Shown: one piece after another, positions 1 to 56,483 of the stretch
How positions within the stretch are numbered: the stretch's first letter is position 1
How the letters are laid out: each line of letters starts with the position of its first letter
Assembly (NCBI GenBank): GCA_002269645.1
Contig: NIVC01001524.1
Coordinates: 1-64,000 of the forward strand
Reading direction: 5' to 3'
From: Macrostomum lignano
Lineage: Eukaryota
DNA length: 64,000 nucleotides
Position numbers and translations under genes: made by a program
Notes under the pieces: generated by a model
What the model was told of the DNA's origin: nothing
Seen by the model: only the letters and a program-made list of their open reading frames with translations
Databases searched by the model: none

Positions 1-398
1 GCTATCTCCTTTATCGATTCGATGTAAAAAGTACAGCGACATTTGACCACAAATTTCTTATCTAAAGTTTGAATTTGTTCTTCCATGTCTCCACATATTC
101 TATTCTTTGTGTGATTAAACTTTTCCATAATTCCAGTGTGGGCGTAGTGCATAGGAATCAAAAAATAAACCTTATCATGAGCTGAAAAGATAGCTGAATG
201 ATGTATACCCCGTTCTTTCGAAGTGTGAATATTTGTCATAAAGTAACCATACTGTGGTAAATCAACAATTTCATCTCTCATGGCATAGCGAAATGGTTTT
301 AACTTGAGATATTTTGCCCAATTTATCAGATCAATATTAGTCGTAGTGTCAGTCCCAAACTTTTGTTTAAATGCATTCCATGTCTCAGCTTCGCTCAT
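1..398 (-). pseudogene. Adenain-like cysteine (maturation) protease, frameshifted, 3' end outside the window
   Basis: Hand translation from ATG at 398: MSEAETW...TNIHTSKERGIHHSAIF...VYF. The motifs FDSY and EQIQTLD..CGQMSLYFL lie in shifted frames, giving the H, D, Q and C catalytic layout. About 4 single-base losses in short runs. Confidence 0.8.
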
Positions 399-407
399 TT
401 TTAACAC

Positions 408-1197
408 TCATATTTGTCGTACGTGTAGATTTATAAATATTTCCTCGCCATCAAAGTCGTATAGAACACCAGACTCATCTTCGATGACAAAGTCGAATGT
501 GCTCAACATGTTTGTAGTTAGTGGTAGGTACACAGGATTTGCAGGCTCTTGAATAATTTTACTTCCCATTGGGACAGAGAACGATGGAATTGAAAGAAGT
601 ATTTGCTTATCAATTAAATGATTTCCATTGGCTGGATCAGTGATAAAACCCCCTTTGATATTGAGACAACGAACCATGATCGCACTTCTAGCTCCGTCTA
701 TCCGAGCTGGATTTGGAGCTCTCTCAAATGGTTTCAAATACACTTCCGAATTGAATCCCAACAGTCTTCTAAAGTTATTGGAATGTGCATCCCTGAAATC
801 AACTTGATACTCTGTGGCTAACCGTAACTCAACCCTACGCGTGTCTAGGCTTGCACTGAAAACAATAGCCCCCTCTTTCCAATCATTTGCAGCTGTTAGC
901 AATCTTTGAATCTCGCTTGACAGACTTTTAACTTCCCAAGATCCTGCTTGAATCTTTATTTTTCCATGTTCTACCACTATCCCTCGAGTATCGCAACTCA
1001 TTATTGCCTCCTTCAATATTGTTAATAGCATCAAAGACTGCAAACTTTTTTATACCAGCTTCGTATTCTCGATCTTCATACAAATTTATCGGAGTGCCTA
1101 GAGTTTGTCGAAATGGGTTTTTAATTGAAAAGAAGTCAAATGTGCGTTGAAACTTTTTACTCAAGAGGATGTTGACTTTTTCTATTTCTTTTTCCAT
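408..1197 (-). CDS. Minor capsid (penton-like) protein, one frameshift near 960-964
   Basis: ORF 928..1197 (…NNELRYSRDSGRTWK) joins ORF 408..1043 (IKIQAGSWEV…FRRLLGF…EPANPVYLPL…DFDGEEIFINLH) across an A-run. The joined product resembles Polinton minor capsid proteins. Confidence 0.78.
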
Positions 1198-1216
1198 TTT
1201 TAAGCAAGTAATTCTA

Positions 1217-1928
1217 CTAGCTCTTTATCAACATTGTTATGTCCTCTGCTTTTGCGGCTAGTAATGTCAACACTCTTTCACTGAGTCCAGATCCCGGTTT
1301 TACTCGATATCCTGGTGGATTATCTTTCAATATCCTTACTGCTTGCTTATAATTCCCACTTGATTTGGCCGCTGGATTTTTACAGTGTTCAATGAGGTTA
1401 ACATAATCCTGCAATGTTTGCATCTTGAATTGCTTCAGCTCTTCACCATTTTCAGTTACTTTAGGCATTTTGAACAACTCTTCAAGATCTTCAGAAAATG
1501 GCATTCGGAATTCGTTGACAATGATGTCCGACCTTGTTCATGGAATTCAACCTCTATTACAGATGATCCAAATATATATCCAGCATCAGTTTTTTGAATC
1601 CGTATACTAGGCGCTGGTCTTTGAGTTATTGGAATCTTTCCAATTTCTTCAATTATTTTGTCAAATACTTCCAGAGGTTCAAATCGTCCTTTTGGTGTAC
1701 TTAATTGCGGAACTGGAACTTTTTGATTCTGAAGTTTATCAACAAGGTTGGCATTGAAATCAATAAATTCATCAGCTTTTCTGTGACAGGTTTTTGAGCT
1801 AATGGAGCCACTCTTGCATATAAACTCTCTTCTCCAATTTTCAAATAGCGTTGAGCATCATTTCTGGATTTGTACGTTTCTCGCTGCTTTGCTAAATTAA
1901 TGAGTTCTCTTATATATTCATTAGTCAT
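1217..1928 (-). CDS. Polinton hypothetical protein (about 237 aa) split by two frameshifts (near 1783 and 1528)
   Basis: ORFs 1701..1928 and 1217..1504 are bridged by an open third frame (ADEFIDFNANLVDKLQ…GYIFGSSVIEVEF). Its start overlaps the ATPase stop. Confidence 0.55.
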
Positions 1929-1930
1929 TT

Positions 1931-2704
1931 TTACAATGGGATTTTAGTTAGAACATCCTTATACAAATCTTGCTCATCCTCATCAGCTCTTGTATTTATA
2001 TAGATATAGCCATACTTCTTTTTCCAAGCCTCTCTACATTTAGCCTTGAATATAGCGGGTTCATAATTCGTTTCTACATTTCTAGCAATGTGATTTAAGT
2101 TTGTATCTTTTTGTTTAAAGATTATGTAACATGTCGTATTCTCCCTGACAGTATTGCGATCTAGTTTGGTAAAATTTTGAGCTAGATAAAAACCACAACA
2201 GTTTCCATGCCTGCCTCTCTGAAACAGACTTTCCTGAAATTTTTGATTAGCCTCTCCCAAAACATCGTCCAATATCACACATGTCTTTAGTCCATTATGA
2301 AAAATTTCTTCATTTGGAGTATGGGAAAGAGTGACAGGAATTTTCTCTATTACTTCTGAATTTTCTGATGTGCTTTGCACTCGACCAGGGTTGGCTGCCT
2401 CTCGACAAATATGTCTAATATCTTCAGGAGATGCATCCTCACTCACCTGGTAGACATGATAGAGTGAGTTGATAAGAGAAGGTGGGAGACCATTTTCAAA
2501 GCCATATTTTAGAAACTGATACTCTGGATCCATTTGAGATGCTCTGGGAACATATAAAACTAACTCATTAAAGTCAACTAGTTTTTCAGGACTTGTAAGA
2601 ATATGGAATAGTAAATATGTTTTACCCGTATTTGTAGCGCCGATAATACAACATAAAAGAGGATTAGGGAAAATAGGATCATGCTGAAATTTTACTTTGG
2701 GCAT
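1931..2704 (-). CDS. A32-like DNA packaging ATPase
   Basis: Walker A GATNTGKT, Walker B VILDD, and the RGRH…FYLAQ motif typical of FtsK-HerA/A32 ATPases. Confidence 0.92.
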   Translation of the reverse strand: MPKVKFQHDPIFPNPLLCCIIGATNTGKTYLLFHILTSPEKLVDFNELVLYVPRASQMDPEYQFLKYGFENGLPPSLINSLYHVYQVSEDASPEDIRHICREAANPGRVQSTSENSEVIEKIPVTLSHTPNEEIFHNGLKTCVILDDVLGEANQKFQESLFQRGRHGNCCGFYLAQNFTKLDRNTVRENTTCYIIFKQKDTNLNHIARNVETNYEPAIFKAKCREAWKKKYGYIYINTRADEDEQDLYKDVLTKIPL

Positions 2705-2725
2705 TTAAAAAAAGAAAAAATGACC

Positions 2726-4090
2726 TTATTCGACGCGGGTCATTTGATATTCACTGGTAACTTTTATTACATTCTTTGTTTGTTCAAGAATTAGTGCAAA
2801 AGCAGTCAGCTCAACATTTGTTGACTTCTTGATAAATAATTGAATATTCACTCCACTCTTGACCAGAAACTCATCTTGAGCTGTTAGATCAAAGCAAAAG
2901 ATTGGATAGATGGTTAGAAAGTCTTGTTTATTGAATGGAGGAGTTACACCGAAACGGCTGCAGATGTCTTCGTACATTTCATACGCTCTGTGAATGTCTT
3001 GAGCTACTGGATCAATTTCAACATAATCATTCGGATACATCACCTGATTTAATCTGACTTGAAGCTGGGTTATTTTCACTGCATTTGCTCCAGTTTTGTA
3101 AGACACATACTTGTGATCATTAACTATATATGATGGGTTGTTTACGTCATATTTGAAAGCTACAAAGATTGCAAGTGGCATATTGGAGATGTTGGCTATG
3201 TTCCATGTATATGGACTTCCTTGAATGAGTTGTGGTGGAACCGTTACCCTCTCTGGAAATGATACTGTAATGTCCTTGTTGAGTGATTTTAGAAAAGCTG
3301 CTTCAGCACTGGGTGACAAAGTAATAGCAGGGATCCAAATCTCAAAGCTATTAATAGTTAACTTAGCTTCCGTCCCGGCAGCTCCAAAGAAAATTTCAGC
3401 ATCGTTAGTCTTTCTTGTCCATGTGAATTTATATTTAATTCCTTTGCTAATCTTCTGCCAATCAAGGAACCCAATGAGAGGTGTTAATGATAGTTTGATT
3501 GTTCCACCTCTGTTTGGAGCATTAGTGACATTGTTATAATTTTCAAGCCTCCTAATGTATCCAGTATTCGAATCCTTCTTATTGAGTCTATTTTTCATAG
3601 CGATTGCTGCAGTTCTCACAGCTTCAGCATCTGCGTTGTTTGCTAGAGGTATATCAGAAACAGTCCCAGCATCTCCAGTGTCTGGAATCCATCCGTATGC
3701 TTCTCCAACTTCATTCATTAATTTTGAGTACATTACGGACTTTAAGATTGTGTCATACTCTCCAGGATCATTATAGACTTTCTTTGTTCCTCCAATGTCA
3801 ACTATGAGTTGAGAGAAAAGTCTCATAGGCCAATTATGTTCTAGAGTAATGTTCGTATTCAAGTCGGTGTTATCTCGTTGTGTTATTGAGTATTTTATAC
3901 AACCGAATGCCTCTGACATGAGAATGTATGACTCTGTTGAATTGACTTCATGAACTATTTGACCTCCTGCAACATTGAGATTATTAGTGCTACCTGGAGT
4001 TGGAGAAATCTTAATATAGTCTTCTTTCTTTTTGAAAAAGCTAAAAGTTTTGTCCTCATATATGCTCAGTATATCCTTTTTGTTCTCCAT
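2726..4090 (-). CDS. Major capsid protein (double jelly-roll, inferred)
   Basis: Intact 454-aa ORF beside the ATPase. It has beta-rich segments (SQLIVDIGG, QLQVRLNQVMYP) and the C-terminal YPIFCFDL motif seen in Polinton MCPs. Confidence 0.85.
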   Translation of the reverse strand: MENKKDILSIYEDKTFSFFKKKEDYIKISPTPGSTNNLNVAGGQIVHEVNSTESYILMSEAFGCIKYSITQRDNTDLNTNITLEHNWPMRLFSQLIVDIGGTKKVYNDPGEYDTILKSVMYSKLMNEVGEAYGWIPDTGDAGTVSDIPLANNADAEAVRTAAIAMKNRLNKKDSNTGYIRRLENYNNVTNAPNRGGTIKLSLTPLIGFLDWQKISKGIKYKFTWTRKTNDAEIFFGAAGTEAKLTINSFEIWIPAITLSPSAEAAFLKSLNKDITVSFPERVTVPPQLIQGSPYTWNIANISNMPLAIFVAFKYDVNNPSYIVNDHKYVSYKTGANAVKITQLQVRLNQVMYPNDYVEIDPVAQDIHRAYEMYEDICSRFGVTPPFNKQDFLTIYPIFCFDLTAQDEFLVKSGVNIQLFIKKSTNVELTAFALILEQTKNVIKVTSEYQMTRVE

Positions 4091-4110
4091 TTTTATAAGA
4101 GAAATTTCAA

Positions 4111-4563
4111 CTAAGCTTCATGAGGTCTAAGAATTATCCCATTACCCTGTTTCTCCTTTTCAACTTTAAACGTCTTTAGCAGCCACTTGACTGCTTCGCT
4201 GGGTACTTGTTCGACTCTTTTAGCCGCATCAACTAATACTCCACTCCCTTGAGCCTTTTTCAACTCTTCTAGTTTTTGCCGTTCAATGCTTTCTATTGTC
4301 TTATTATGTTTAGCATTGTTGGCTGTATTAACACTTTTTGCAATCATTGTACCAACTCCTGAGGCTGCTCCGATACCACCCAAAATTGCTGGTAGTAAGC
4401 CTAATAGAGGAATTATTCCACCTTCATGTTCTTTCTGTTTCTCTTGCAATTCTCGAATCTTCTCTTTAGAAAGATATTGCTTTTGCTTATTTACAGTAAC
4501 ATATCTTGGTTTTCCCTCTCGAACATATCGATTGAGTCTTGCTTCAGTGTTTTTCTCGCTCAT
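4111..4563 (-). CDS. Small basic virion/core protein with EGG-IIPLL hydrophobic segment
   Basis: 150 aa, Lys-rich, with HEGGIIPLLGLLPAILGGIG. Similar G/G-hydrophobic motifs occur in Polinton/adintovirus core proteins. Confidence 0.6.
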   Translation of the reverse strand: MSEKNTEARLNRYVREGKPRYVTVNKQKQYLSKEKIRELQEKQKEHEGGIIPLLGLLPAILGGIGAASGVGTMIAKSVNTANNAKHNKTIESIERQKLEELKKAQGSGVLVDAAKRVEQVPSEAVKWLLKTFKVEKEKQGNGIILRPHEA

Positions 4564-4571
4564 TTTTAAGG

Positions 4572-4994
4572 TCAGAATTTCTTCAAACCATTGCCTTGTC
4601 TCAAAGACACTTGAGACTGTTCTGCTGTTCCTAGAGCCTTTTTAACAATATCTTGAATAGCCTTATTTGATTGAGAAGCTATCTGTTGCTCTTCTTCCAT
4701 TCTTTTCTTTGCTTCTTTATCTCTACGTTTCTTTTTAATATATTCCAGTTCCTCACCTGCTTTAGACATGTCACTGTATGATTTCTTCGCATCGAATATG
4801 TTCTTCGCTGTGGTAGCTGTTTTACCTATTGCATCAGCTCCACTCACAATTTTACTTCCATGATTTGATAAAAAGTTTGTGACACCACTGATCATATCAC
4901 CAATTCCTTCACCCTCTTTATCAGCTAGTAGTTGTGAATCAGACGTTTCAATCTGACCTTTCGCCCGTTTGCAGTTTGTTCGATAGGCGCTCAT
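4572..4994 (-). CDS. Small virion protein with amphipathic helix (GEGIGDMISGVTNFLSNHG)
   Basis: The likely start is the ATG at 4994, preceded by the element's TAAAA motif. The ORF-track start at 5072 lies inside the integrase. Confidence 0.55.
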   Translation of the reverse strand: MSAYRTNCKRAKGQIETSDSQLLADKEGEGIGDMISGVTNFLSNHGSKIVSGADAIGKTATTAKNIFDAKKSYSDMSKAGEELEYIKKKRRDKEAKKRMEEEQQIASQSNKAIQDIVKKALGTAEQSQVSLRQGNGLKKF

Positions 4995-7186
4995 TTTTAG
5001 TTGAAAAATTTGCTGGTAGAAGCTGGGATTTGTAAAATGATCCAATGATTTCTTCTCCATTCTCATCCTCAATAATGTAGGTTATGGGATTGGAGTAAAC
5101 TATTTTCTTTATCCTAAACACTTCTGAAATTTTCCAATATCCTCTTCGACCCTTTTCAAAGTGCTCCTTATATCTATAGATATGAACTTTGTCACCTACT
5201 TTGAAGTTTGGTTTCTCATTTGAATACTCGAAAGTTGGCTTTGGTACTCGCTCAGGATGTTTAGATGCTTCTGAAGGAGTTATCAGAATCTCAGAATGGA
5301 TTGTGTTGTTGTATTTTTCAACAATAGCTGGCAATGTGTGGAGCCACTTCTGATTACCCTGTAGATCAAATTCAAACCAGAGTTTATTTGTGAGAGTACG
5401 ATTGAACCTCTCAATCATTGCATTCTTGGACTCGCCATAAATTGAAAACATCTTGTTTATATATTCACCCTTTTCATCCTTCTTTCTAATGTTGTCTTTT
5501 GAAAACGAATATAGCTTGTACATATGCTGATTATAAAACTCCTTGCCTTCATCTACACAAAGTCTCTCTGATCGTCTTCCTGATTCCTTAAATACTTTTT
5601 GGAAAGCTTCTGCAACTTCCGCTCCCGTCTTTGTTTTCAAAGGAACTGCCCAGGCGTAACGTGTAAAACCATCTATGATAGTGAGAGCATATTTGTAACC
5701 TCTTTCAGGAGGAAGGATAATGATATCTGCATGCCAAATTGTGTCTTTTGCATAGTGAATCATTTTTCTAAATACTCTTGGCTTTCGATATTCTTTATGC
5801 AATTTTACTGCATCTTCATAGCTAAGACCCTTACCATAAATTGTTAGACAGTCAATACAATTGTTGGGGTTGTGAGTATGAATGCCTAATCCAAACCGAA
5901 CTTTAGCCTTGATAATACGCTTTACTAGATTTCGAATGAGTCTCTCTTTCACAGACAAGTCACTGGTTGGAATAGCATCTAAATCAGCTATCATTTTTTC
6001 ATCAGCTATATGCTTCTTTGCTAGAGCTTCCTCTGGATTTGAAGAAGTGTTTTCAGCATCTCTATAGTTTTTGTCATGATAGTAAGCAGTCCAATCGATT
6101 GGGTTAATTGGTAGACTGTCATACCGAGGCCGGTCTGTAATTGGATTGAGTCTCTTGTCTAAATTTGTACCCGGCAGTTGTTCCTCAATCTTTCGAAAGA
6201 GGCTGGACTTTATCTTAAGGCTTCATCAGGATTGACCAGATCCTTCAGCCCCACCCCCATTAAGTCTCTGAACCTTCTCCATATCCTTGTCAACTTCGTT
6301 CGGACTTAGGAGCTTGGCTGCGGATTTCCACCATGTCCTCAAGCTTGTTACCATCGAACCATAGGTTCGCGGACGAAGTCCGATTGGGAACAGGAATTAC
6401 CTGTGTTCCTTCAGAAGATTTCTCAACTGAAGTGGTACTTGAGGCTGTTATTGACGTACTAGAATCGGACGGAGTTCCCGCAATTTGAAGGTGTCGCCAA
6501 TCACTAAGCACTTGTTTAATGTTGGTTATAATGTTTTTGTATTGATCACCATAAAGAAATTTCAATGCAAATTCTCCTGTTATAAGGGTGATTCCATTGT
6601 CTAGTAAAATATTCTTAGGTTCCTTTGTAGTTTTATTGATGCATACATAATACAACTGATAGATGGGATAAGAATTTTTATAGTCTAATAGTTTCTGATA
6701 ATTCCTTTCACGACTTGATGAACTGTCCGTGTTATCAGAAGATTTAAGCTCTAATGCAATCTTTCGCTCAACGTGAACCAGGTCAATCTTTTTTACCTTC
6801 TCGAATCCAAAATAATTTTCTGCTAATATTTCATATAGTCTGCCTAGTCTCATTTGAATAACTTTAATCTTGTGTGAAATTATTAACTCTTCTTGGAAAA
6901 GATCATGAAGAATTTGATCATGCCCAACCTTATCATCAATTGGTTTCAGAAGAATTTCTCGAATTGTTTGCTCCATTTTTACTATAGAAACTTTAACAAG
7001 TGCTTATTTGATGACTAGCAAGGACATTGACTTCCTCACTCAGGCCACTACGTAACCTGCAAAAGAATACCCTGGAATATGAAGTTCTCCTGGGTATTTT
7101 CCAGTGGCGAAGATGGGTGGTAGTTTTGTTATAGCTGACTGAATATCTAAAGCATTTCCTAGAAATAATGGTTTACTGAAGGCCAT
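4948..7186 (-). CDS. Spliced PLA2-like domain + rve (DDE) integrase, exons 7055..7186 and 4948..6174 (452 aa)
   Basis: Exon 1 ends ELHIPGYSFAG and exon 2 starts PGTNLDKRL…INPIDWTAYYHDKNY, giving the parvovirus-type PLA2 Ca loop and HD motif. It continues in frame into WHAD…IDGFTRY…DEGKEF…IERFNRTL integrase motifs. Confidence 0.9.
6175..7054 (-). ncRNA. Group I self-splicing intron (IC1-like core), 880 nt
   Basis: The 5' exon ends in U and the intron ends in G. P1 CAGGU/GCCUG with a U.G pair; P AAUUGCGGGAA (6475-6485); Q AAUCCGCAGC (6317-6326); R GUUCAGAGACUUAA (6260-6273); S AAGAUAAAGUCC (6205-6216); P3 CACCUUCA/UGGGGGUG; P7 GACUU/AAGUC; P8 and P9 hairpins. Removal restores the reading frame. 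Confidence 0.92.
6290..6976 (-). CDS. Intron-encoded PD-(D/E)xK nuclease (putative homing or restriction-like endonuclease)
   Basis: The ORF starts between P1 and P3. Motifs are QMRLGRLYE…IDL…ELKSSDNTDSSSS. The C-terminal roughly 65 codons read through the ribozyme core. Confidence 0.75.
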   Translation of the reverse strand: MEQTIREILLKPIDDKVGHDQILHDLFQEELIISHKIKVIQMRLGRLYEILAENYFGFEKVKKIDLVHVERKIALELKSSDNTDSSSSRERNYQKLLDYKNSYPIYQLYYVCINKTTKEPKNILLDNGITLITGEFALKFLYGDQYKNIITNIKQVLSDWRHLQIAGTPSDSSTSITASSTTSVEKSSEGTQVIPVPNRTSSANLWFDGNKLEDMVEIRSQAPKSERS

Positions 7187-7615
7187 TTTATATATATAAA
7201 ATTTACTATCGTTGAATTGGATGACACTTTCATATTGTATATACCTGAAATTGCATTAAATTGACCCGAGGATCCAACCTTTCTCATGGTTTTAGAGCTG
7301 GAATCGTGAAAATTGCACTTTTTAAAAAAAAATAGAAAATCACAAAAAATCGCTGTTTTCAGACCATTTTCACCTGTTTTTAGTCATTTTTCAGTTATTT
7401 TTAGTGATTTTCAAAATGAGTGAGGGCATGAGGGCGAGGGCACCCCCCCTTTTTAAAAGTATAAAAAATCCGGAAATTCTGTCTTCTGAGAAATATACCA
7501 CAGGCCAATGCCCCCCACATGCCCTCACCCTCAACACCCTCAGTCACAGATATATGTATATTTATATATTTTTTTATATTTATCACACACACACTTGAAT
7601 CCATGACCACCTGGT

Positions 7616-7714
7616 AGTAGTAGTATGTTATAAGGGGCTGAGTCATCCAGCGAGCTGGCGCGTAATGCGCCCGAGCGATAAGTGTGGCGCAGCCCCTTAT
7701 AACATACTACTACT
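7616..7714. repeat. Terminal inverted repeat/hairpin at the Polinton end
   Basis: Perfect 25-bp arms AGTAGTAGTATGTTATAAGGGGCTG (7616-7640) and its reverse complement (7690-7714) around a 49-nt GC-rich loop. Confidence 0.9.
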
Positions 7715-51334: not shown

Positions 51335-54300
51335 TCAACTCAGTCTCATTCGACTGAGCTTGGCGTGAGTCCAGCTGTCTCTCTGCTTCACTGCAGTTTC
51401 CATGACAACAAGGCGCCCCAAGTCGGCCCCGTCTCGCCGCAGCCTCGCCCTCGCCCACAGCCTCCGCTCCTCATCTTCCCTGCTGCGGTGAGCGCCAAAG
51501 TCGCTGCCGCTGCAGTTCGAAACTCGCCACCGCTTCTGCCTGACCCAGCTGATCATCTCCTCGTCCTGCGACTCCATGGCGACGCGTCTCTCTTTCTCGA
51601 TCATCTCCATCTGCTGCAGGCTGAGGTCCACGTGCTCGCGGAAGTCGCTGTAGTGAGCCAGAGTGAGCAGCTCCTCCAAGTCCGGGTCCTCTTGCAGCTG
51701 AGTCTTCCAAGCATCGAAAGAGATTTCATTTTCGGGTGTTCGATCGCGGAGCAGCTCAGCTTGGAGACTCCAACTCAGGCAGCGGAAGTTCACGTACAGG
51801 TGTGAGGACCGAGGCTGCGACAGTCTGGCAATGAACAGAGTCTGCGTGAACTCGGGAAGAAAAGGAAAGCGAGGCCGAGTGTCGCACGGAAAGCAGAACC
51901 TCCACGCCCAGTCCAAGTCGTCGGGGACCTCCCAATCTTCCAGCCGACTGGTTGTAAAGCATTCCGGCGTCCAGGCAGGCTGAGCAGAGTGATTGTAGAG
52001 CTTCTTCAGTGGTGCCTCGGCCTCCTCAACCTCTCCGAACTTTAAGTGCGCCATGACATTGAGACAGAGTGCGGCAGTCTTGCACCACTGCAGTCGGTCT
52101 AAAAGTTGCAGCTCATTCATTAGGGAGGCCTTGCCTGTTTTTGCTGACGTCAGCTTCTGCTCATTCATTAGGGAGGCCTTGCCTGTTTTTGCTGACGTCA
52201 GCTTCTGCTCATTCATTAGGGAGGCCTTGCCTGTTTTTGCTGACGTCAGCTTCTGCTCATTCATTAGGGAGGCCTTGCCTGTTTTTGCTGACGTCAGCTT
52301 CTGCAGGCACTGGTAAATTACACAGTAGGCATCTCCAAAATGCAGGTATTGGTTTTTGCGTCTCGGTCTCACTTCGCTCACTCTACTTGGTGATGCCAAC
52401 GGCAGTAGAGCAAAAGGGTGGAAGAAGAAGTTCTGTGACTGCAGTGGTCTCAAGTACTCTTTCAGTAAACTCGCCATTTCTCCAATGTTTCTTCGCACTT
52501 CGATTAATCGGTCTCGAACCCTCGTCTTGGTACACGCGAAGTCGCCGCCGATTCCAGCGTTCTTAAAGTAGAGCGGAGCGTCCGACATGAAGAAGTGCGG
52601 CATGCACTCGTCGGGCGAGCTGCTTGAGTCAATGAAGCTCAACATCATTTCGAGAGCCTCTTTCACAAGAGAAATCAGCTTTTCCGGCTGCCAAGCGGGA
52701 TAAAAATCTTCGGTTCCGTGCTTCTCGAGCATGAAGAAGAGCAGAGTCTTTGCGTGGTAAGTTTTGAGTCCAGGTGTTTTCAGCGTGACGGGTAAGTATT
52801 TTTTGAAGATAAATTTGATTACTGTAAAGAGTTGACCCTGAACGTCAGAGAGGCTTCTCATGATTTGCTTTTCGTGTAAGCTGAAGCTCACCCTGAGCTC
52901 GTTTTGTGTTAGCTTTGTAGGTCGGGTTGCTCTCACCAGATGCACTTTTGGCGGTTTAGTGATGAGTTTAACCCTTTCAGGATCTGTGCAAAAGTCGCTG
53001 CAGCACTGAAAGGCACGGCACAGGTCCAGTCTGGGTCTCACGCCGCTTGCAGGAGTTGACAGGGCAGGCTGGCTGCCTAAAATATTAATAATTGGTTGCA
53101 GATTTTATTGTTATTTATCATTGTAGATGCGTTTTTCACACCTTTACTATTGTATTATACTTGATTTCTAATTGGTTTCTTGATTTTATGTACAAGATCA
53201 CAATAGTATAATCGGTGTGATTTATTAATGATGCAATGGGTTCTAGATAAAAAGTTTCCTTTTTTAACAATATTTCAATTTTGATTTTGCCGCGGTCGGA
53301 AATCGGAAAGACATTTGCTACAGTGTTGGAATAGATATAAGTACTAGCTTAGGTGTCTTGACGTGGAGGCTATTGACAAAACTTATTACTAAAAGTCGTA
53401 ACAATTTTTGCGTACCACAACTCTCGGGAATATTAACATGACCTTCTGCCACCATCTGCTGATCAGCCTGTGCACAATCTCCTGTCTGGGAGCACCCGCC
53501 CTGGAGATGAAACTTCTGCAGAGCAACAACAACCGTCCAGTCGATGTCTGAGTCATCCGCCGTTCTGCCGTTCACTTGAACCAGACTGTTGGCCCAGCCC
53601 TCTGCGTAGCTGCCCGTCAGCCAACTGTCGTCACGGACCAGCCAACTGTCGTCACGGACCACTTCGATGGGGATTCTCTGCAGGCAGTCGGCCATCACCT
53701 TCTGGCACTTGGCTCTGTCGCGGGTGAATCCTGCCGAGTTGAACAGCTCGTGCAACTCCGTGCTTAGCGGCTCGTCCTGTGCGCGATTTTCGTTCCTAAA
53801 ATGCGTAAATAGTTGAATACGTACTTGCAGGAAAAATCAGTTATTAACTTGTGGATAGTTGATCAATATCTTACCTTAAGTAAAAAGAATCAAGTAGTCG
53901 AAGCAGCTCTGAGTGTCCGTTCTGCTCCGCCAACTGCACGCATGTCAAACCCCGATCGTCTTGGTGACTCGCATCCGCTCCATTGTCTATCAGACTCTTT
54001 GCAGCTCGCACGTGACCCGCTTCGCATGCTCGAGTCAGAGCCGTCCGACCGTGACTGTCTTGGACTTGCACGGATGCACCGAGCTCCACAAGCTTCTCGA
54101 TGAGCTCGTGGTGACCTGCATCAGCTGCCAACATGAGAGCAGTGGCTCCTTTGCTGTCTGGCAGGTCAAGAACATCTCTGGTGAGCTGACGCAAAATAGC
54201 GAAGGCCAAGGATACATGTTCCCTTGAAATCGATCGTAGAAGTCTCAACTTTTCTGCCGGCTGTATGGTTGACAATGTTTTGTTCAGAATAGAGTTTTCA

Positions 54301-56483
54301 TTCTTCAGTGCCATCATAGAGAAGAATTGAAGCAACGGCGGAAACTGGAGCCACTGCGGTTCAATATCAAAGCGTTCTACGACGTTTTCGTGTCCGAAAG
54401 ACGCTCCGGCGAGGGCGCATTGACGGTGGCACTCAGTTCTCTGTTCTGTATCGCGAATCTTCCGCAACGAGGACATCATGGCATCAGCTTTGCCGCATCG
54501 TGCTGCAGACTCAGCAGCCCTGCTGTAGTAGAGATCCTTCAGACCTTCATCTTTCAGATCATCGACTTCTTTTGACATAGCATCGAACACATCAGTTTTA
54601 CCGCCACTTTGTGAGGACTCCGCTGCCTTCATGCAGCACTCCAGCCTGACGGATGGCTCTTCAGCCGACTGAACCAGAAAATTCACCACCTCGGTGTGGC
54701 CGTTGAAAGCCGCTGGCTCAACTGCAGTCAAGCAGCACTTGTCTCGCACTTGCTTTTCTGAGACTGTCTCAATGATAAACTTCACGAATTCAAAGTAGCC
54801 GTTTTTGGCAGCCGGTCTGACTGCTACTAATCTGCCTTTATCTTTAATAGATTGTGGAAATTCCATCCGAAATAAAGACTTCGCAACTTCGAGCTTCAGA
54901 TTGTTGGCAGCTGACTCCACTGATCGCAGATAGCTCTGATTTTTAATGCTTGAATCATTGATGCTGTTAACAAAGTCTTTCGTCTTTTCCAAGTTGCCAC
55001 TCCAAGCAGCAGATTCTGCAGCAGACGCGTAGCACTCGTCCTTTTGGCCCTGGTTGCTGATAGACTCAGCTAGAAACTTCACGACATCCCATTTTTGCGA
55101 ATCCGAAGCGGATTTTGCAGATTTCTTGCAGCATTGATTTTTTACAGTTTTGTCAACCATTTCTTGAACCAGATAGGTCACCAACTCAAGATGACCGTTC
55201 TTTGCTGCAGGCGGAGTGGCCCTGCTGCAGCACTGATCTTTTAGAGTCTTGTCAACCATTTCTTGAACCAGATAGGTCACCACCTCAAGATGACCGTTCT
55301 TTGCTGCAGGCGGAGTGGCCCTGCTGCAGCACTGGTCTTTTAGAGTCTTGTCAACCATTTCTTGAACCAGATAGGTCACCACCTCAAGATGACCGTTCTT
55401 TGCTGCAGGCGGAGTGGCCCTGCTGCAGCACTGGTCTTTCAAATTTTCTGCAACGGAGTCTACCAGAAACTTTGTGATCAAAAGTTGACGATTCTTTGCG
55501 GACGCCTTGACTGCCTTAAGGCAGCACTTGTCTCTTAGTTTCTGGTCTTTGATGGCTTCAATAGCATGTTTTGCCACTTCAAAGTGACCGTAGCTGGATG
55601 CAACTTCAGCTACTTTTATTGAGCATTCATACTTAAATCTTGTGCTTTTGCAGCCATGCAACACGGACTTCACTAGCTCAAAGTGTCCATTTCTAGCAGC
55701 AGATTCGGCAGAAATCATGCACAGTGCACGTTTCTCGCTTTCATTTTCTAATTTATTGAGCAACGCTTCGACAAGTTGGGCGTAGCCTTTGGCACCGATA
55801 TGCCTTGCTGCGACTGCCACTGATAGGCGTTGATCTGCTTCGTGCTGTGCCAAGACATCACTGCACTGCTCTCTCACTTCTGGTTCAGCGGCCTCTTTCG
55901 ATAGCAGCTCTAGTGTCTCCAACAATGCTTTTTCTGCAACTTGTTTCTCTTGATTACTTGTTGCAGTTCCAGCTGCCTCCATGCTAAACTGTTGCTTCAA
56001 CTCCTCGTCTGAGCTCAGTTCAACAAAAAAATTTCGGACATGTAAATCCTGGCTGTCTGCAGCAGCGTTAGCGAATCTGCGGCAGCACTGGTCTTTCAAG
56101 CTTTGGTTACCTATGGCTTTTGTAAGAATTTGCACAACATTCCAAGAGCGCCATATTTGGGCAGATTCTGCCATCTCACTGCACCAATTGTCCTTCCGCT
56201 CGCTGTCTCCCATGCTGTTTATGAATGATTCGAGTTTTTCCATTTGTTTGAACTTCATTGCGTGAATGGCAGCAGTTATGCAGCTCTGGTTCCTGACATC
56301 TTCATCGCCAATACAGCTCATCAAATACTCCACAATTTCCCATTTCTGCTTTTGCACAGCAAGCAAAGTTCCATCCTCACATAACTGGTTTTTTGCGTTC
56401 GGGTCACGTGTCTGCTCTACTAAAGCTTTTAACTTCTCTTGATCGCCAACCTTTACAACATCTTTTAGGCTGCTTTGACTCAT
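51335..56483 (-). CDS. Ankyrin-repeat + Mab21/cGAS-like nucleotidyltransferase (cGLR), exons 53875..56483, 53416..53795, 51335..53076 (1576 aa)
   Basis: Canonical GT..AG introns (53796-53874 and 53077-53415) join the three ORFs in frame. ANK motifs (GATALMLAADAGHHELIEKLVELGA), NTase GSYAEG…DSDID, a third Asp in RLDLC, and Mab21 C-lobe motifs (SFSLHEK, KTYHAKTLLF, PHFF) are present. Confidence 0.85.

What the first reader, a model, noticed from the sequence alone, without database searches (positions are those of the whole stretch)
6175..7054. Group I self-splicing intron inside a Polinton/adintovirus gene in an animal genome
Seen in the sequence: removing 6175-7054 fuses ELHIPGYSFAG to PGTNLDKRL in frame. 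The exon ends in U, the intron ends in G, P1 has the splice-site U.G pair, and P/Q/R/S, P3, P4, P7, P8, P9 and a long P5abc-like extension (CCUCAAG/CUUGAGG, UACCA/UGGUA) are all present. Established knowledge: group I introns occur in protist, fungal and algal rDNA, organelles, bacteria, phages and giant viruses, and in animals mainly in mitochondria of non-bilaterians. Inference: a ribozyme intron in an animal-integrated Polinton protein gene is, to my knowledge, unusual. It implies acquisition from a microbial or viral source and splicing-dependent integrase expression.
Basis: partly seen in the sequence, partly recalled or inferred. Interest (0 to 1): 0.95.

Follow-up and report, generated by a model that had tools for sequence, protein, structure and literature searches.

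The report
Self-splicing intron in animal endogenous virus
A virus-like transposon sitting in many copies in an animal's chromosomes carries a self-splicing RNA intron with a restriction-enzyme-like gene inside it, and the intron interrupts the one place where the element would otherwise still spell that kind of enzyme's cut site.

Summary
The intron is real. Window 7054-6175 (minus strand) matches Rfam group I RF00028 at 88.9 bits. Its core covaries (10 of 30 pairs change on both sides), and intron-less copies in the same genome fix the insertion point between the Gly and Pro codons of the PLA2 calcium loop of a Polinton PLA2-integrase gene. Intron-bearing copies share contigs with Wnt genes, and 13 of 13 checked have different flanks, so this is integrated animal DNA. 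It is an Eco47II/EcoO109I/AvaII-like nuclease; the characterised relatives cut GG-N-CC-type sites. The elements contain no GGNCC (0 vs 7.0 expected in 12.6 kb; control viruses and host DNA are normal). A Gly-Pro pair always spells GGNCC, and the intron breaks exactly that site. Best reading: a short-site nuclease used for homing and competition, with self-protection by site loss plus the intron. A second family has a nuclease-free intron at the same site, mostly ending in A (73 vs 24 G). Splicing and cleavage are not shown, and the integrase may not need splicing. Ten literature searches found such introns only in protist Polinton-like viruses.

The parts
7616..7714 (-). Left end of the Polinton: AGTAGT-type terminus that folds back as a ~100-nt hairpin; host DNA (tandem repeats) lies beyond
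   Evidence: Same terminus with a different host flank in 13 of 13 copies checked; fold; host repeats
7055..7186 (-). Exon 1 (44 codons) of the PLA2-integrase gene, ending at the Gly codon of the YxGPG calcium loop; last base is the splice-site U
   Evidence: intact homologous domain matches PF08398 at 4e-09 in an intron-less copy
6175..7054 (-). Group I intron, 880 nt
   Evidence: Rfam RF00028 88.9 bits; boundaries from intron-less copies
7041..7059 (-). P1 / internal guide sequence, U7055.G7045 wobble at the 5' splice site
6995..7006 (-). 5' arm of a 12-bp perfect helix (partner 6516-6505) that, with a proximal helix, closes the loop holding the nuclease domain; P2.1-like position (label inferred)
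   Evidence: sequence; duplex; family B has a short hairpin here
6290..6976 (-). Intron-encoded ORF, 228 aa: PD-(D/E)xK nuclease domain (codons 1-160, 6976-6497) plus a disordered tail read through the ribozyme core
   Evidence: PF09553 RE_Eco47II E 1.2e-05, 25.5 bits vs cut-off 25.9; 14 of 14 homologues hit it; model pLDDT <50 for 165-228; EcoO109I Z 9.5 and Foldseek E 1.1e-04
6183..6493 (-). Ribozyme core: P3 (6493-6487), P4 (6483-6478), P5abc-like arm, P6, P7 (6268-6262 with 6210-6205; G-site pair G6266-C6206), P8, P9 (6202-6183)
6175..6175 (-). Terminal (omega) G
   Evidence: G in all 28 other family-A copies printed
4948..6174 (-). Exon 2 (408 codons): rest of PLA2 domain and rve integrase; in-frame ATG at 5994 upstream of the integrase core
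   Evidence: PF08398 E 0.0012, PF00665 E 5.9e-10
2726..4090 (-). Double jelly-roll major capsid protein of the element
   Evidence: PF21738 E 1.9e-13
1931..2704 (-). Packaging ATPase of the element
   Evidence: PF04665 E 1.9e-06
1..7714 (-). Part of the Polinton held in the window (the contig starts inside it); contains no GGNCC
   Evidence: 0 observed vs 8.4 expected, most depleted of 32 palindromes; pPolB motifs in a 98.5%-identical copy

Best explanation
This is a mobile group I intron in an endogenous Polinton-type virus of an animal. SHOWN: the RNA has a complete, covarying group I core; it sits between the Gly and Pro codons of the PLA2 calcium loop; it encodes a PD-(D/E)xK nuclease of the EcoO109I/AvaII/Eco47II clade under purifying selection; the element stretches examined lack GGNCC; in intron-less copies the Gly-Pro pair is a GGNCC site. 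INFERRED: the intron excises itself by the two-step guanosine pathway and so restores the PLA2 domain. The nuclease is a short-site cutter (GGWCC, possibly GGNCC). No methyltransferase was recognised among the ORFs scanned, so the element protects itself by losing the site everywhere it can and by letting the intron split the site at the conserved Gly-Pro. The site is then unique in intron-less relatives, so a 5-bp restriction-type enzyme acts as a homing endonuclease on sister elements (cut, repair from the intron-bearing copy) and as a weapon against co-resident DNA that keeps the site. The nuclease is probably made from unspliced or excised RNA only during active replication, since constitutive expression would cut host chromosomes.
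For: Rfam 88.9 bits. Covariation incl. three adjacent P7 pairs swapped between families. Insertion point fixed by intron-less copies and the same site used in a metagenomic element. Nuclease: Pfam; EcoO109I is the only one of 48,161 chains at Z>=8 and top in Foldseek; AvaII is the only PDB sequence hit, weak at E 0.12, and aligns its N170/S171 outer-G:C-reading residues with this protein's DS/NSSS motif (my count; roles from PMC7337904). AvaII cuts G^GWCC and EcoO109I RG^GNCCY. dN/dS 0.021/0.111, 0.063/0.212, 0.035/0.195, 0.286/2.145. GGNCC: family A 0 vs 7.0 in 12,626 nt, P 0.0009, rank 1 of 16; family B 0 vs 3.7 and 0 vs 2.3; controls 29 vs 29.1, 11 vs 8.3, host 28 vs 26.3; GGWCC is the most depleted of all 5-mers. 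Of 20 near-identical intron-less junctions read, 17 use GGC-Pro (not GGWCC), 3 read Gly-Gln, and 0 have the allele that flanks the intron: the pattern expected if the sensitive allele was converted or lost.
Against: No spliced junction was seen in the four runs laid (contigs only, RNA status guessed, so uninformative). No cleavage data exist. The Pfam score is just under cut-off and identity to the solved enzymes is 13-14%, so specificity is extrapolated. A family-B copy with an HNH-like gene instead of this nuclease also lacks GGNCC (0 vs 2.3-3.9), and an intron-less family-A copy lacks it outside the loop, so the purge follows the lineage rather than each copy's nuclease. Only two control viruses were available. 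If the site is GGWCC, a synonymous escape exists and the intron is not needed for immunity. One intron-less family-B copy keeps GGTCC (L088). No clear P10 was found. Only part of each element was scanned for a methyltransferase. Exon 2 is fully open in 10 of 28 intron-bearing copies.
Confidence: 0.62

Rival explanations
1. Ordinary homing intron: the nuclease has a long recognition site centred on the insertion point (as recalled for the PD-(D/E)xK homing enzyme I-Ssp6803I), and the GGNCC loss comes from another enzyme, such as one from a helper giant virus.
For: A long site would spare the host genome. The purge is also present in copies that lack this nuclease. The nuclease family has 296 representatives, mostly without an intron-core tail, so other carriers exist.
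Against: The domain is only about 160 aa and its nearest solved relatives are 5-7-bp cutters of the very motif that is lost. The elements themselves carry the gene, inside the intron in family A and beside it in 3 of 8 family-B copies.
Confidence: 0.17
2. Passenger or fossil: the intron was functional in an earlier host or only inside a helper-virus factory. In the animal it is copied but not spliced, and the integrase is made from the downstream ATG.
For: In-frame ATG at 5994 with the A-rich context of other starts. 73 of 97 family-B 3' ends matched end in A instead of G. No spliced joint. A metagenomic element has the same intron and site.
Against: Compensatory changes separate families A and B within this genome. 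Twelve copies are 99.4-100% identical across the intron, and 13 of 13 checked have distinct flanks, i.e. recent spread. The PLA2 HD motif and reading frame are kept. The G-site pair is invariant in 14 of 14 cores.
Confidence: 0.14
3. The insert is removed by the spliceosome at nearby GT-AG sites and the group I fold is incidental.
For: Animal host. Frame-preserving GT/GC-AG pairs exist within 30-60 nt of the ends (32 listed).
Against: The true ends are UA...UG. None of the 32 pairs uses the boundaries set by intron-less copies, and I saw no clear pyrimidine tract before the acceptors. Covariation is at the ribozyme helices.
Confidence: 0.03
4. The contigs are contamination from a protist and its Polinton-like virus.
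For: Known PLV group I introns are in protists (PMC12220804); close relatives occur in metagenomes.
Against: Intron-bearing copies share contigs with Wnt genes (C67, C952, C506), occur on contigs over 1 Mb, and have distinct flanks.
Confidence: 0.02

Closest known systems
Group I introns in protist Polinton-like viruses (Rhodomonas, Paulinella, Desmodesmus; PMC12220804, passages read)
   Same: RF00028 introns inside genes of endogenous PLVs in a eukaryotic nuclear genome.
   Different: Reported as restricted to a few protist groups, 309-376 bp, in a ~50-aa gene upstream of MCP, with no nuclease annotated. Here the host is an animal, the gene is PLA2-integrase, and a nuclease is encoded.
Nuclear IC1/IE group I introns with homing endonuclease genes (PMC3679873, passages read)
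   Same: Core with an elaborate P4-P6 scaffold; nuclease gene inserted in a peripheral loop.
   Different: Stated to be exclusive to rRNA genes of eukaryotic microorganisms, with the gene in P1, P2, P6, P8 or P9. Here it is a protein gene of an integrated virus, and the ORF reads through the catalytic core.
Phage PhiPA3 intron endonuclease gp210, interference competition (PMC11620839, abstract and passages read)
   Same: Intron-encoded nuclease that targets the intron-less conserved site in competing viruses.
   Different: A nicking homing endonuclease in a bacterial virus, shown by experiment. Here a restriction-type fold with genome-wide loss of a short site, in an animal element, by inference only.
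Type II restriction endonucleases EcoO109I (RG^GNCCY), AvaII (G^GWCC) (PMC7337904, passages read) and Pfam RE_Eco47II (GGNCC specificity recalled)
   Same: Fold, catalytic D...ExK and the N/D-S-S-S base-reading motif.
   Different: Much shorter (about 160 aa), 13-14% identity, no methyltransferase recognised nearby, housed in or beside an intron.
Adintovirus / Polinton elements with PLA2X (PMC8502044, passages read)
   Same: pPolB, rve integrase, double jelly-roll capsid, A32 ATPase, parvovirus-type PLA2.
   Different: PLA2 is fused to the integrase here (common among homologues) and is split by a group I intron; the word 'intron' occurs once in that paper's main text, for another virus group.
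Collaborative homing by free-standing endonucleases next to ORF-less introns (described in PMC11296320, passages read)
   Same: Family B has a free-standing nuclease gene directly upstream of the intron-bearing gene.
   Different: The tree nests family B's free gene among intron-embedded ones, which suggests exit from the intron rather than the step before entry; direction not tested with a clade test.

Membership tests
Group I intron | Covariance-model match to RF00028 above gathering score | tested here: met
   88.9 bits vs 50; 28 hits genome-wide; family B 59.7-65.3 bits in 7 of 8 loci, the eighth being intron-less
Group I intron | U.G pair at the 5' splice site in P1 | tested here: met
   12 of 12 distinct 5' ends
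Group I intron | P3/P4/P6/P7 core with the P7 G-C guanosine site, supported by covariation | tested here: met
   10 of 30 pairs with double changes; G-site pair 14 of 14
Group I intron | Terminal omega G | tested here: met
   G at 6175 and in 28 of 28 other family-A copies; family B ends in A in 73 of 97 matches
Group I intron | P10 pairing with the 3' exon | tested here: inconclusive
   No clear in-register P10; third base of the Pro codon varies
Group I intron | Guanosine-dependent self-splicing | not testable with these tools
   No assay; uninformative
Subgroup IC1 | Best score against subgroup-specific models; P5abc, P2.1, P9 extensions | not testable with these tools
   No subgroup models on hand. 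A P5abc-like arm and a P2.1-like helix are seen; no P9.1/P9.2. The IC1 likeness is recalled.
Homing endonuclease (intron-encoded) | ORF inside the intron; intron-plus and intron-minus alleles; insertion disrupts the target | tested here: met
   insertion splits the GGNCC of Gly-Pro (target identity inferred)
Homing endonuclease (intron-encoded) | Cleaves the intron-less allele and drives conversion; long recognition site | not testable with these tools
   No assay; motif loss suggests a short site instead
Eco47II / EcoO109I / AvaII-type PD-(D/E)xK endonuclease | Profile and fold match with catalytic D...ExK | tested here: met
   PF09553 E 1.2e-05, 0.4 bit under cut-off; Z 9.5, rmsd 4.5 over 164 residues; D65, E76, K78 nearly invariant in 40 sequences
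Type II restriction-modification system | Cognate methyltransferase | tested here: inconclusive
   None recognised among the element ORFs scanned; no element was scanned end to end
Polinton / adintovirus | pPolB, rve integrase, DJR capsid, packaging ATPase | tested here: met
   (polymerase motifs A, B, C read by eye in a 98.5%-identical copy; Pfam gave only its HNH domain); family B pPolB about 10-11 kb from the intron
Polinton / adintovirus | Terminal inverted repeats and 6-bp target duplication | tested here: inconclusive
   One terminus with distinct flanks in 13 of 13; the other end was not fetched

The most novel reading that the evidence does not exclude
An animal Polinton runs 'restriction without modification'. 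It encodes a 5-bp restriction-type nuclease, has erased the site from its genome, and uses a self-splicing ribozyme to hide the one site that protein function pins down (Gly-Pro of PLA2). That turns a restriction enzyme into a homing endonuclease and anti-competitor weapon, and makes these the first group I ribozymes working from bilaterian nuclear chromosomes, including a large family that splices with a terminal A.
Probability: 0.4. Interest if true: 0.93.

Novelty: new variant of a known kind. Interest (0 to 1): 0.85.

Why it matters
Reviews state that nuclear group I introns are confined to rDNA of microbial eukaryotes (PMC3679873) and that group I introns are absent from animals apart from non-bilaterian lineages and a few sharks (PMC10964413). 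More than 120 copies in an animal's chromosomes (lower bound; the assembly appears to hold duplicate haplotypes) would change that statement. They also offer a natural test of whether group I ribozymes can work in animal cells, which matters for RNA circularisation and trans-splicing tools. The nuclease-site-intron match gives a concrete, testable route from restriction enzyme to homing endonuclease. It hints that animal Polintons, whose virions have not been observed, still compete as replicating viruses. The natural G/A terminal polymorphism with an unchanged G site is a ready-made series for 3' splice-site chemistry.

Tried and rejected
RNA evidence: no holder on record as RNA was listed. 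Four runs laid (4 of 24 listed; contigs, RNA guessed) showed only the intron-less DNA allele's joint and contigs crossing both splice sites unspliced; this says nothing for or against splicing. Nuclease relatives in IMG/VR: none confirmed; the broad alignment was too diverse to scan with, so GGNCC loss could not be tested on distant carriers. An intron-specific 21-mer gave 0 hits in IMG/VR and 1 in 185,579 prokaryote genomes, with no RNA family there, about chance level. No match of nuclease or core in 50,697 phage records. BFVD fold search: nothing at E<=0.001. Gly-Pro dipeptide avoidance in integrase homologues is not specific (close 7 vs 51.9, far 8 vs 29.2; related sequences), so it was dropped. 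L092 and L093 are mostly host DNA beyond the element and were not used whole as element tests (6 vs 8.7 and 9 vs 10.4). The genome-wide Rfam search scored only 28 candidates and missed family B. Three of 20 short junction regions were not parsed by the script. A poxvirus-type late promoter was considered from the A-rich starts; only 1 TAAAATG in the element and no support in the paper checked, so it is not claimed. Earlier findings of the scan: none. Yamada 1994 was not held.

Full report
Observation. The stretch 7054..6175 on the minus strand is 880 nt, follows an exon-terminal U and ends in G. Rfam RF00028 matches 6567-6184 at 88.9 bits, the only family hit in the window. P1 puts the last exon U against a G in 12 of 12 distinct 5' ends. 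On 14 distinct cores, 99.8% of 420 cells pair and 10 of 30 pairs change on both sides, including three adjacent P7 pairs; 0 of 500 shuffles reach this, and slid controls pair 36-51%. The rows fall into about three related groups, so this counts few independent events. No clear P10 was found.

Host gene and element. The interrupted gene is a parvovirus-type PLA2 domain fused to an rve integrase. The break lies between Gly and Pro of the YxGPG loop. Neighbours are a double jelly-roll capsid gene and an A32 ATPase. A copy 98.5% identical over 5.9 kb continues into an ORF with polymerase motifs A, B and C, read by eye, and an HNH domain. The element begins at 7714 with an AGTAGT terminus; 13 of 13 copies checked have this end with different flanks. 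The integrase core lies downstream of an in-frame ATG at 5994, so PLA2, not necessarily the integrase, depends on splicing.

The host is an animal. The 764-Mb assembly has 86 Wnt matches and 3 MyoD-type basic-domain matches (that the latter marks bilaterians is recalled). Contigs C67, C952 and C506 carry both Wnt and an intron-bearing element. Repeated near-identical Wnt hits suggest duplicate haplotypes, so copy counts overstate loci.

Copies. Family A: 43 DNA matches, 28 of them spanning nearly the whole query, intron identity 79-100%, and 28 Rfam hits. Of 22 near-identical intron-less candidates fetched, 20 junctions were read: 17 have Thr-Gly(GGC)-Pro, 3 have Gly-Gln, and none has the codons that flank the intron. 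Family B (about 58% PLA2 identity): 7 of 8 loci fetched have an ORF-less intron of about 300-335 nt at the same site (59.7-65.3 bits) and one is intron-less. A 3'-end pattern finds 73 copies ending in A and 24 ending in G, with 0 for the reversed control. A JGI metagenome contig has the same intron, site and nuclease.

The nuclease. The intron holds a 228-codon ORF (6976-6290). Codons 1-160 sit in a loop closed by a perfect 12-bp helix; the rest reads through P3 to P6 and is predicted disordered. It matches PF09553 RE_Eco47II at E 1.2e-05, just under cut-off, as do 14 of 14 aligned homologues at E<=0.1. Ten of the 13 closest homologues end in tails that translate the ribozyme core. The model's best match among 48,161 chains is EcoO109I (Z 9.5, rmsd 4.5, 164 residues; next 6.2), and Foldseek agrees. 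The only PDB sequence hit is AvaII, weak at E 0.12. AvaII cuts G^GWCC, EcoO109I cuts RG^GNCCY, and AvaII N170/S171 select the outer G:C pair (PMC7337904); these residues align with the conserved NSSS motif here. The ORF is whole in 10 of 28 other copies, with 4 more at 211-250 codons. dN is below dS in all 6 comparisons that could be computed, of 8 tried. In family B a nuclease gene stands free just upstream of the PLA2 gene: the same nuclease in 3 of 8 loci (64-66% identical) and an HNH-like one, judged by eye and without a Pfam match, in 5 of 8. The tree nests the free form among intron-embedded forms (supports 95/91 and 88/80).

Site loss. GGNCC occurs 0 times in window 1-7714 against 8.4 expected, the most depleted of 32 palindromes. 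With a stricter null: family A 0 vs 7.0 in 12,626 nt (P 0.0009), family B 0 vs 3.7 and 0 vs 2.3; two nuclease-free Polinton-like contigs 29 vs 29.1 and 11 vs 8.3; host DNA 28 vs 26.3. GGWCC ranks first among all 5-mers (0 vs 7.7) and GGSCC fifth (0 vs 4.2). Any Gly-Pro codon pair spells GGNCC. The element's seven ORFs checked contain no Gly-Pro, and in intron-less copies the PLA2 loop is such a site. Against a tight link: copies without this nuclease are purged too, and only two controls were available.

Mechanism. Shown: structure, insertion site, nuclease family, selection, site loss. Inferred: self-splicing restores PLA2; the nuclease cuts GGWCC or GGNCC; site loss plus the intron protects the element; the now unique site makes a short-site enzyme a homing enzyme on sister elements and a weapon against other DNA. 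Translation through the core and ribozyme folding should exclude each other, which may limit expression. How the host genome is spared is open; expression only during replication, perhaps outside the nucleus with a helper virus, is a guess. Rivals are a long-site homing enzyme with the purge caused by another enzyme (0.17), an unspliced passenger (0.14), spliceosomal removal (0.03) and contamination (0.02).

RNA data. No run was on record as RNA. Four contig sets showed only the intron-less allele's joint. This is not evidence either way.

Literature. Ten full-text searches found no report of a group I intron in an animal Polinton, or of an Eco47II-type intron nuclease. The library lacks most subscription journals. 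Passages read: PMC12220804 (group I introns in PLVs of a few protist groups; its supplementary tables S11-S12 were not read and may bear on this), 10.1101/2023.08.22.554363 (speculates that a Polinton HNH came from a group I intron), PMC11296320, 10.64898/2026.10.13.758929, PMC8502044, PMC10964413, PMC3679873, PMC11620839, PMC7253447, PMC12768974, PMC11131425 (coral polintoviruses; 'intron' 0 times in the main text), PMC7337904. First quarter of PMC11835236. Yamada 1994 on chlorovirus introns was seen only as a reference entry. The Coxiella intron with a terminal A, I-Ssp6803I and the Eco47II site are recalled.

Verdict. A real group I intron and a new variant of a known kind. It is new in host (animal chromosomes) and in the pairing of a restriction-type nuclease with genome-wide loss of its likely site. 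Splicing and cleavage still need one experiment each.

Noticed in passing
G000 family B, e.g. L082:901-1202, L085, L087, L089: Group I introns ending in A rather than G in 73 of 97 pattern matches, with the P7 G-site pair unchanged and three other P7 pairs swapped; by inspection, in-frame removal needs the cut after that A.
   Followed up: partly
L082-L089, upstream of the PLA2 gene: The slot before the PLA2 gene holds either the Eco47II-like nuclease or an HNH-like zinc-finger nuclease, overlapping or abutting the PLA2 start: an exchangeable nuclease cassette.
   Followed up: partly
window about 6380-6352 and equivalent loops in L018, L023, L027, L084, L086, L089: Short (15-40 nt) hairpin-like insertions of related sequence appear and disappear in P5, P5a and P6 loops, and one similar unit lies between genes in L082/L083: possibly a tiny mobile palindrome.
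   Followed up: no
window 7616-7714: The element's first ~100 nt form a near-perfect fold-back with AGTAGT at both ends.
   Followed up: partly
P0191, P0198, P0202, P0208, P0223, P0227, P0238; L070-L072: Intron-less PLA2-integrase relatives in which the loop's Gly-Pro is replaced (Gly-Ala, Gly-Leu, Gly-Thr, Gly-Gln); possible escape from a GGNCC cutter.
   Followed up: no
cluster of P0005 (30 members) and P0189 (34 members): Another set of intron-nuclease copies on ENA contigs up to 65 kb suggests a second host with many integrated copies; DNA could not be fetched.
   Followed up: no
L057 (G000:C1874): A remnant with exon 1 and only the 5' ~45 nt of a divergent intron lies about 700 nt upstream of an intron-less PLA2 gene; similar duplicated gene starts occur in L023-L025.
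   Followed up: no
window 408-1224 (minus): The ORF that is 272 codons in L090 is in two frames in this copy, so this copy has at least one broken gene or an assembly error.
   Followed up: no
window 51335-56483 (minus): Host Mab-21/cGAS-like domain ORF (PF20266) next to an ankyrin-repeat ORF; possibly one cGAS-like receptor gene.
   Followed up: no
window 8500-44000: Dense run of unrelated tandem arrays (periods 4-32 nt, up to 7.7 kb); the long ORFs there are repeat artefacts.
   Followed up: no
L099:505-3015 (minus): Family A polymerase carries an endonuclease VII/HNH domain, as described for pPolB2 of nematode and oomycete Polintons.
   Followed up: partly
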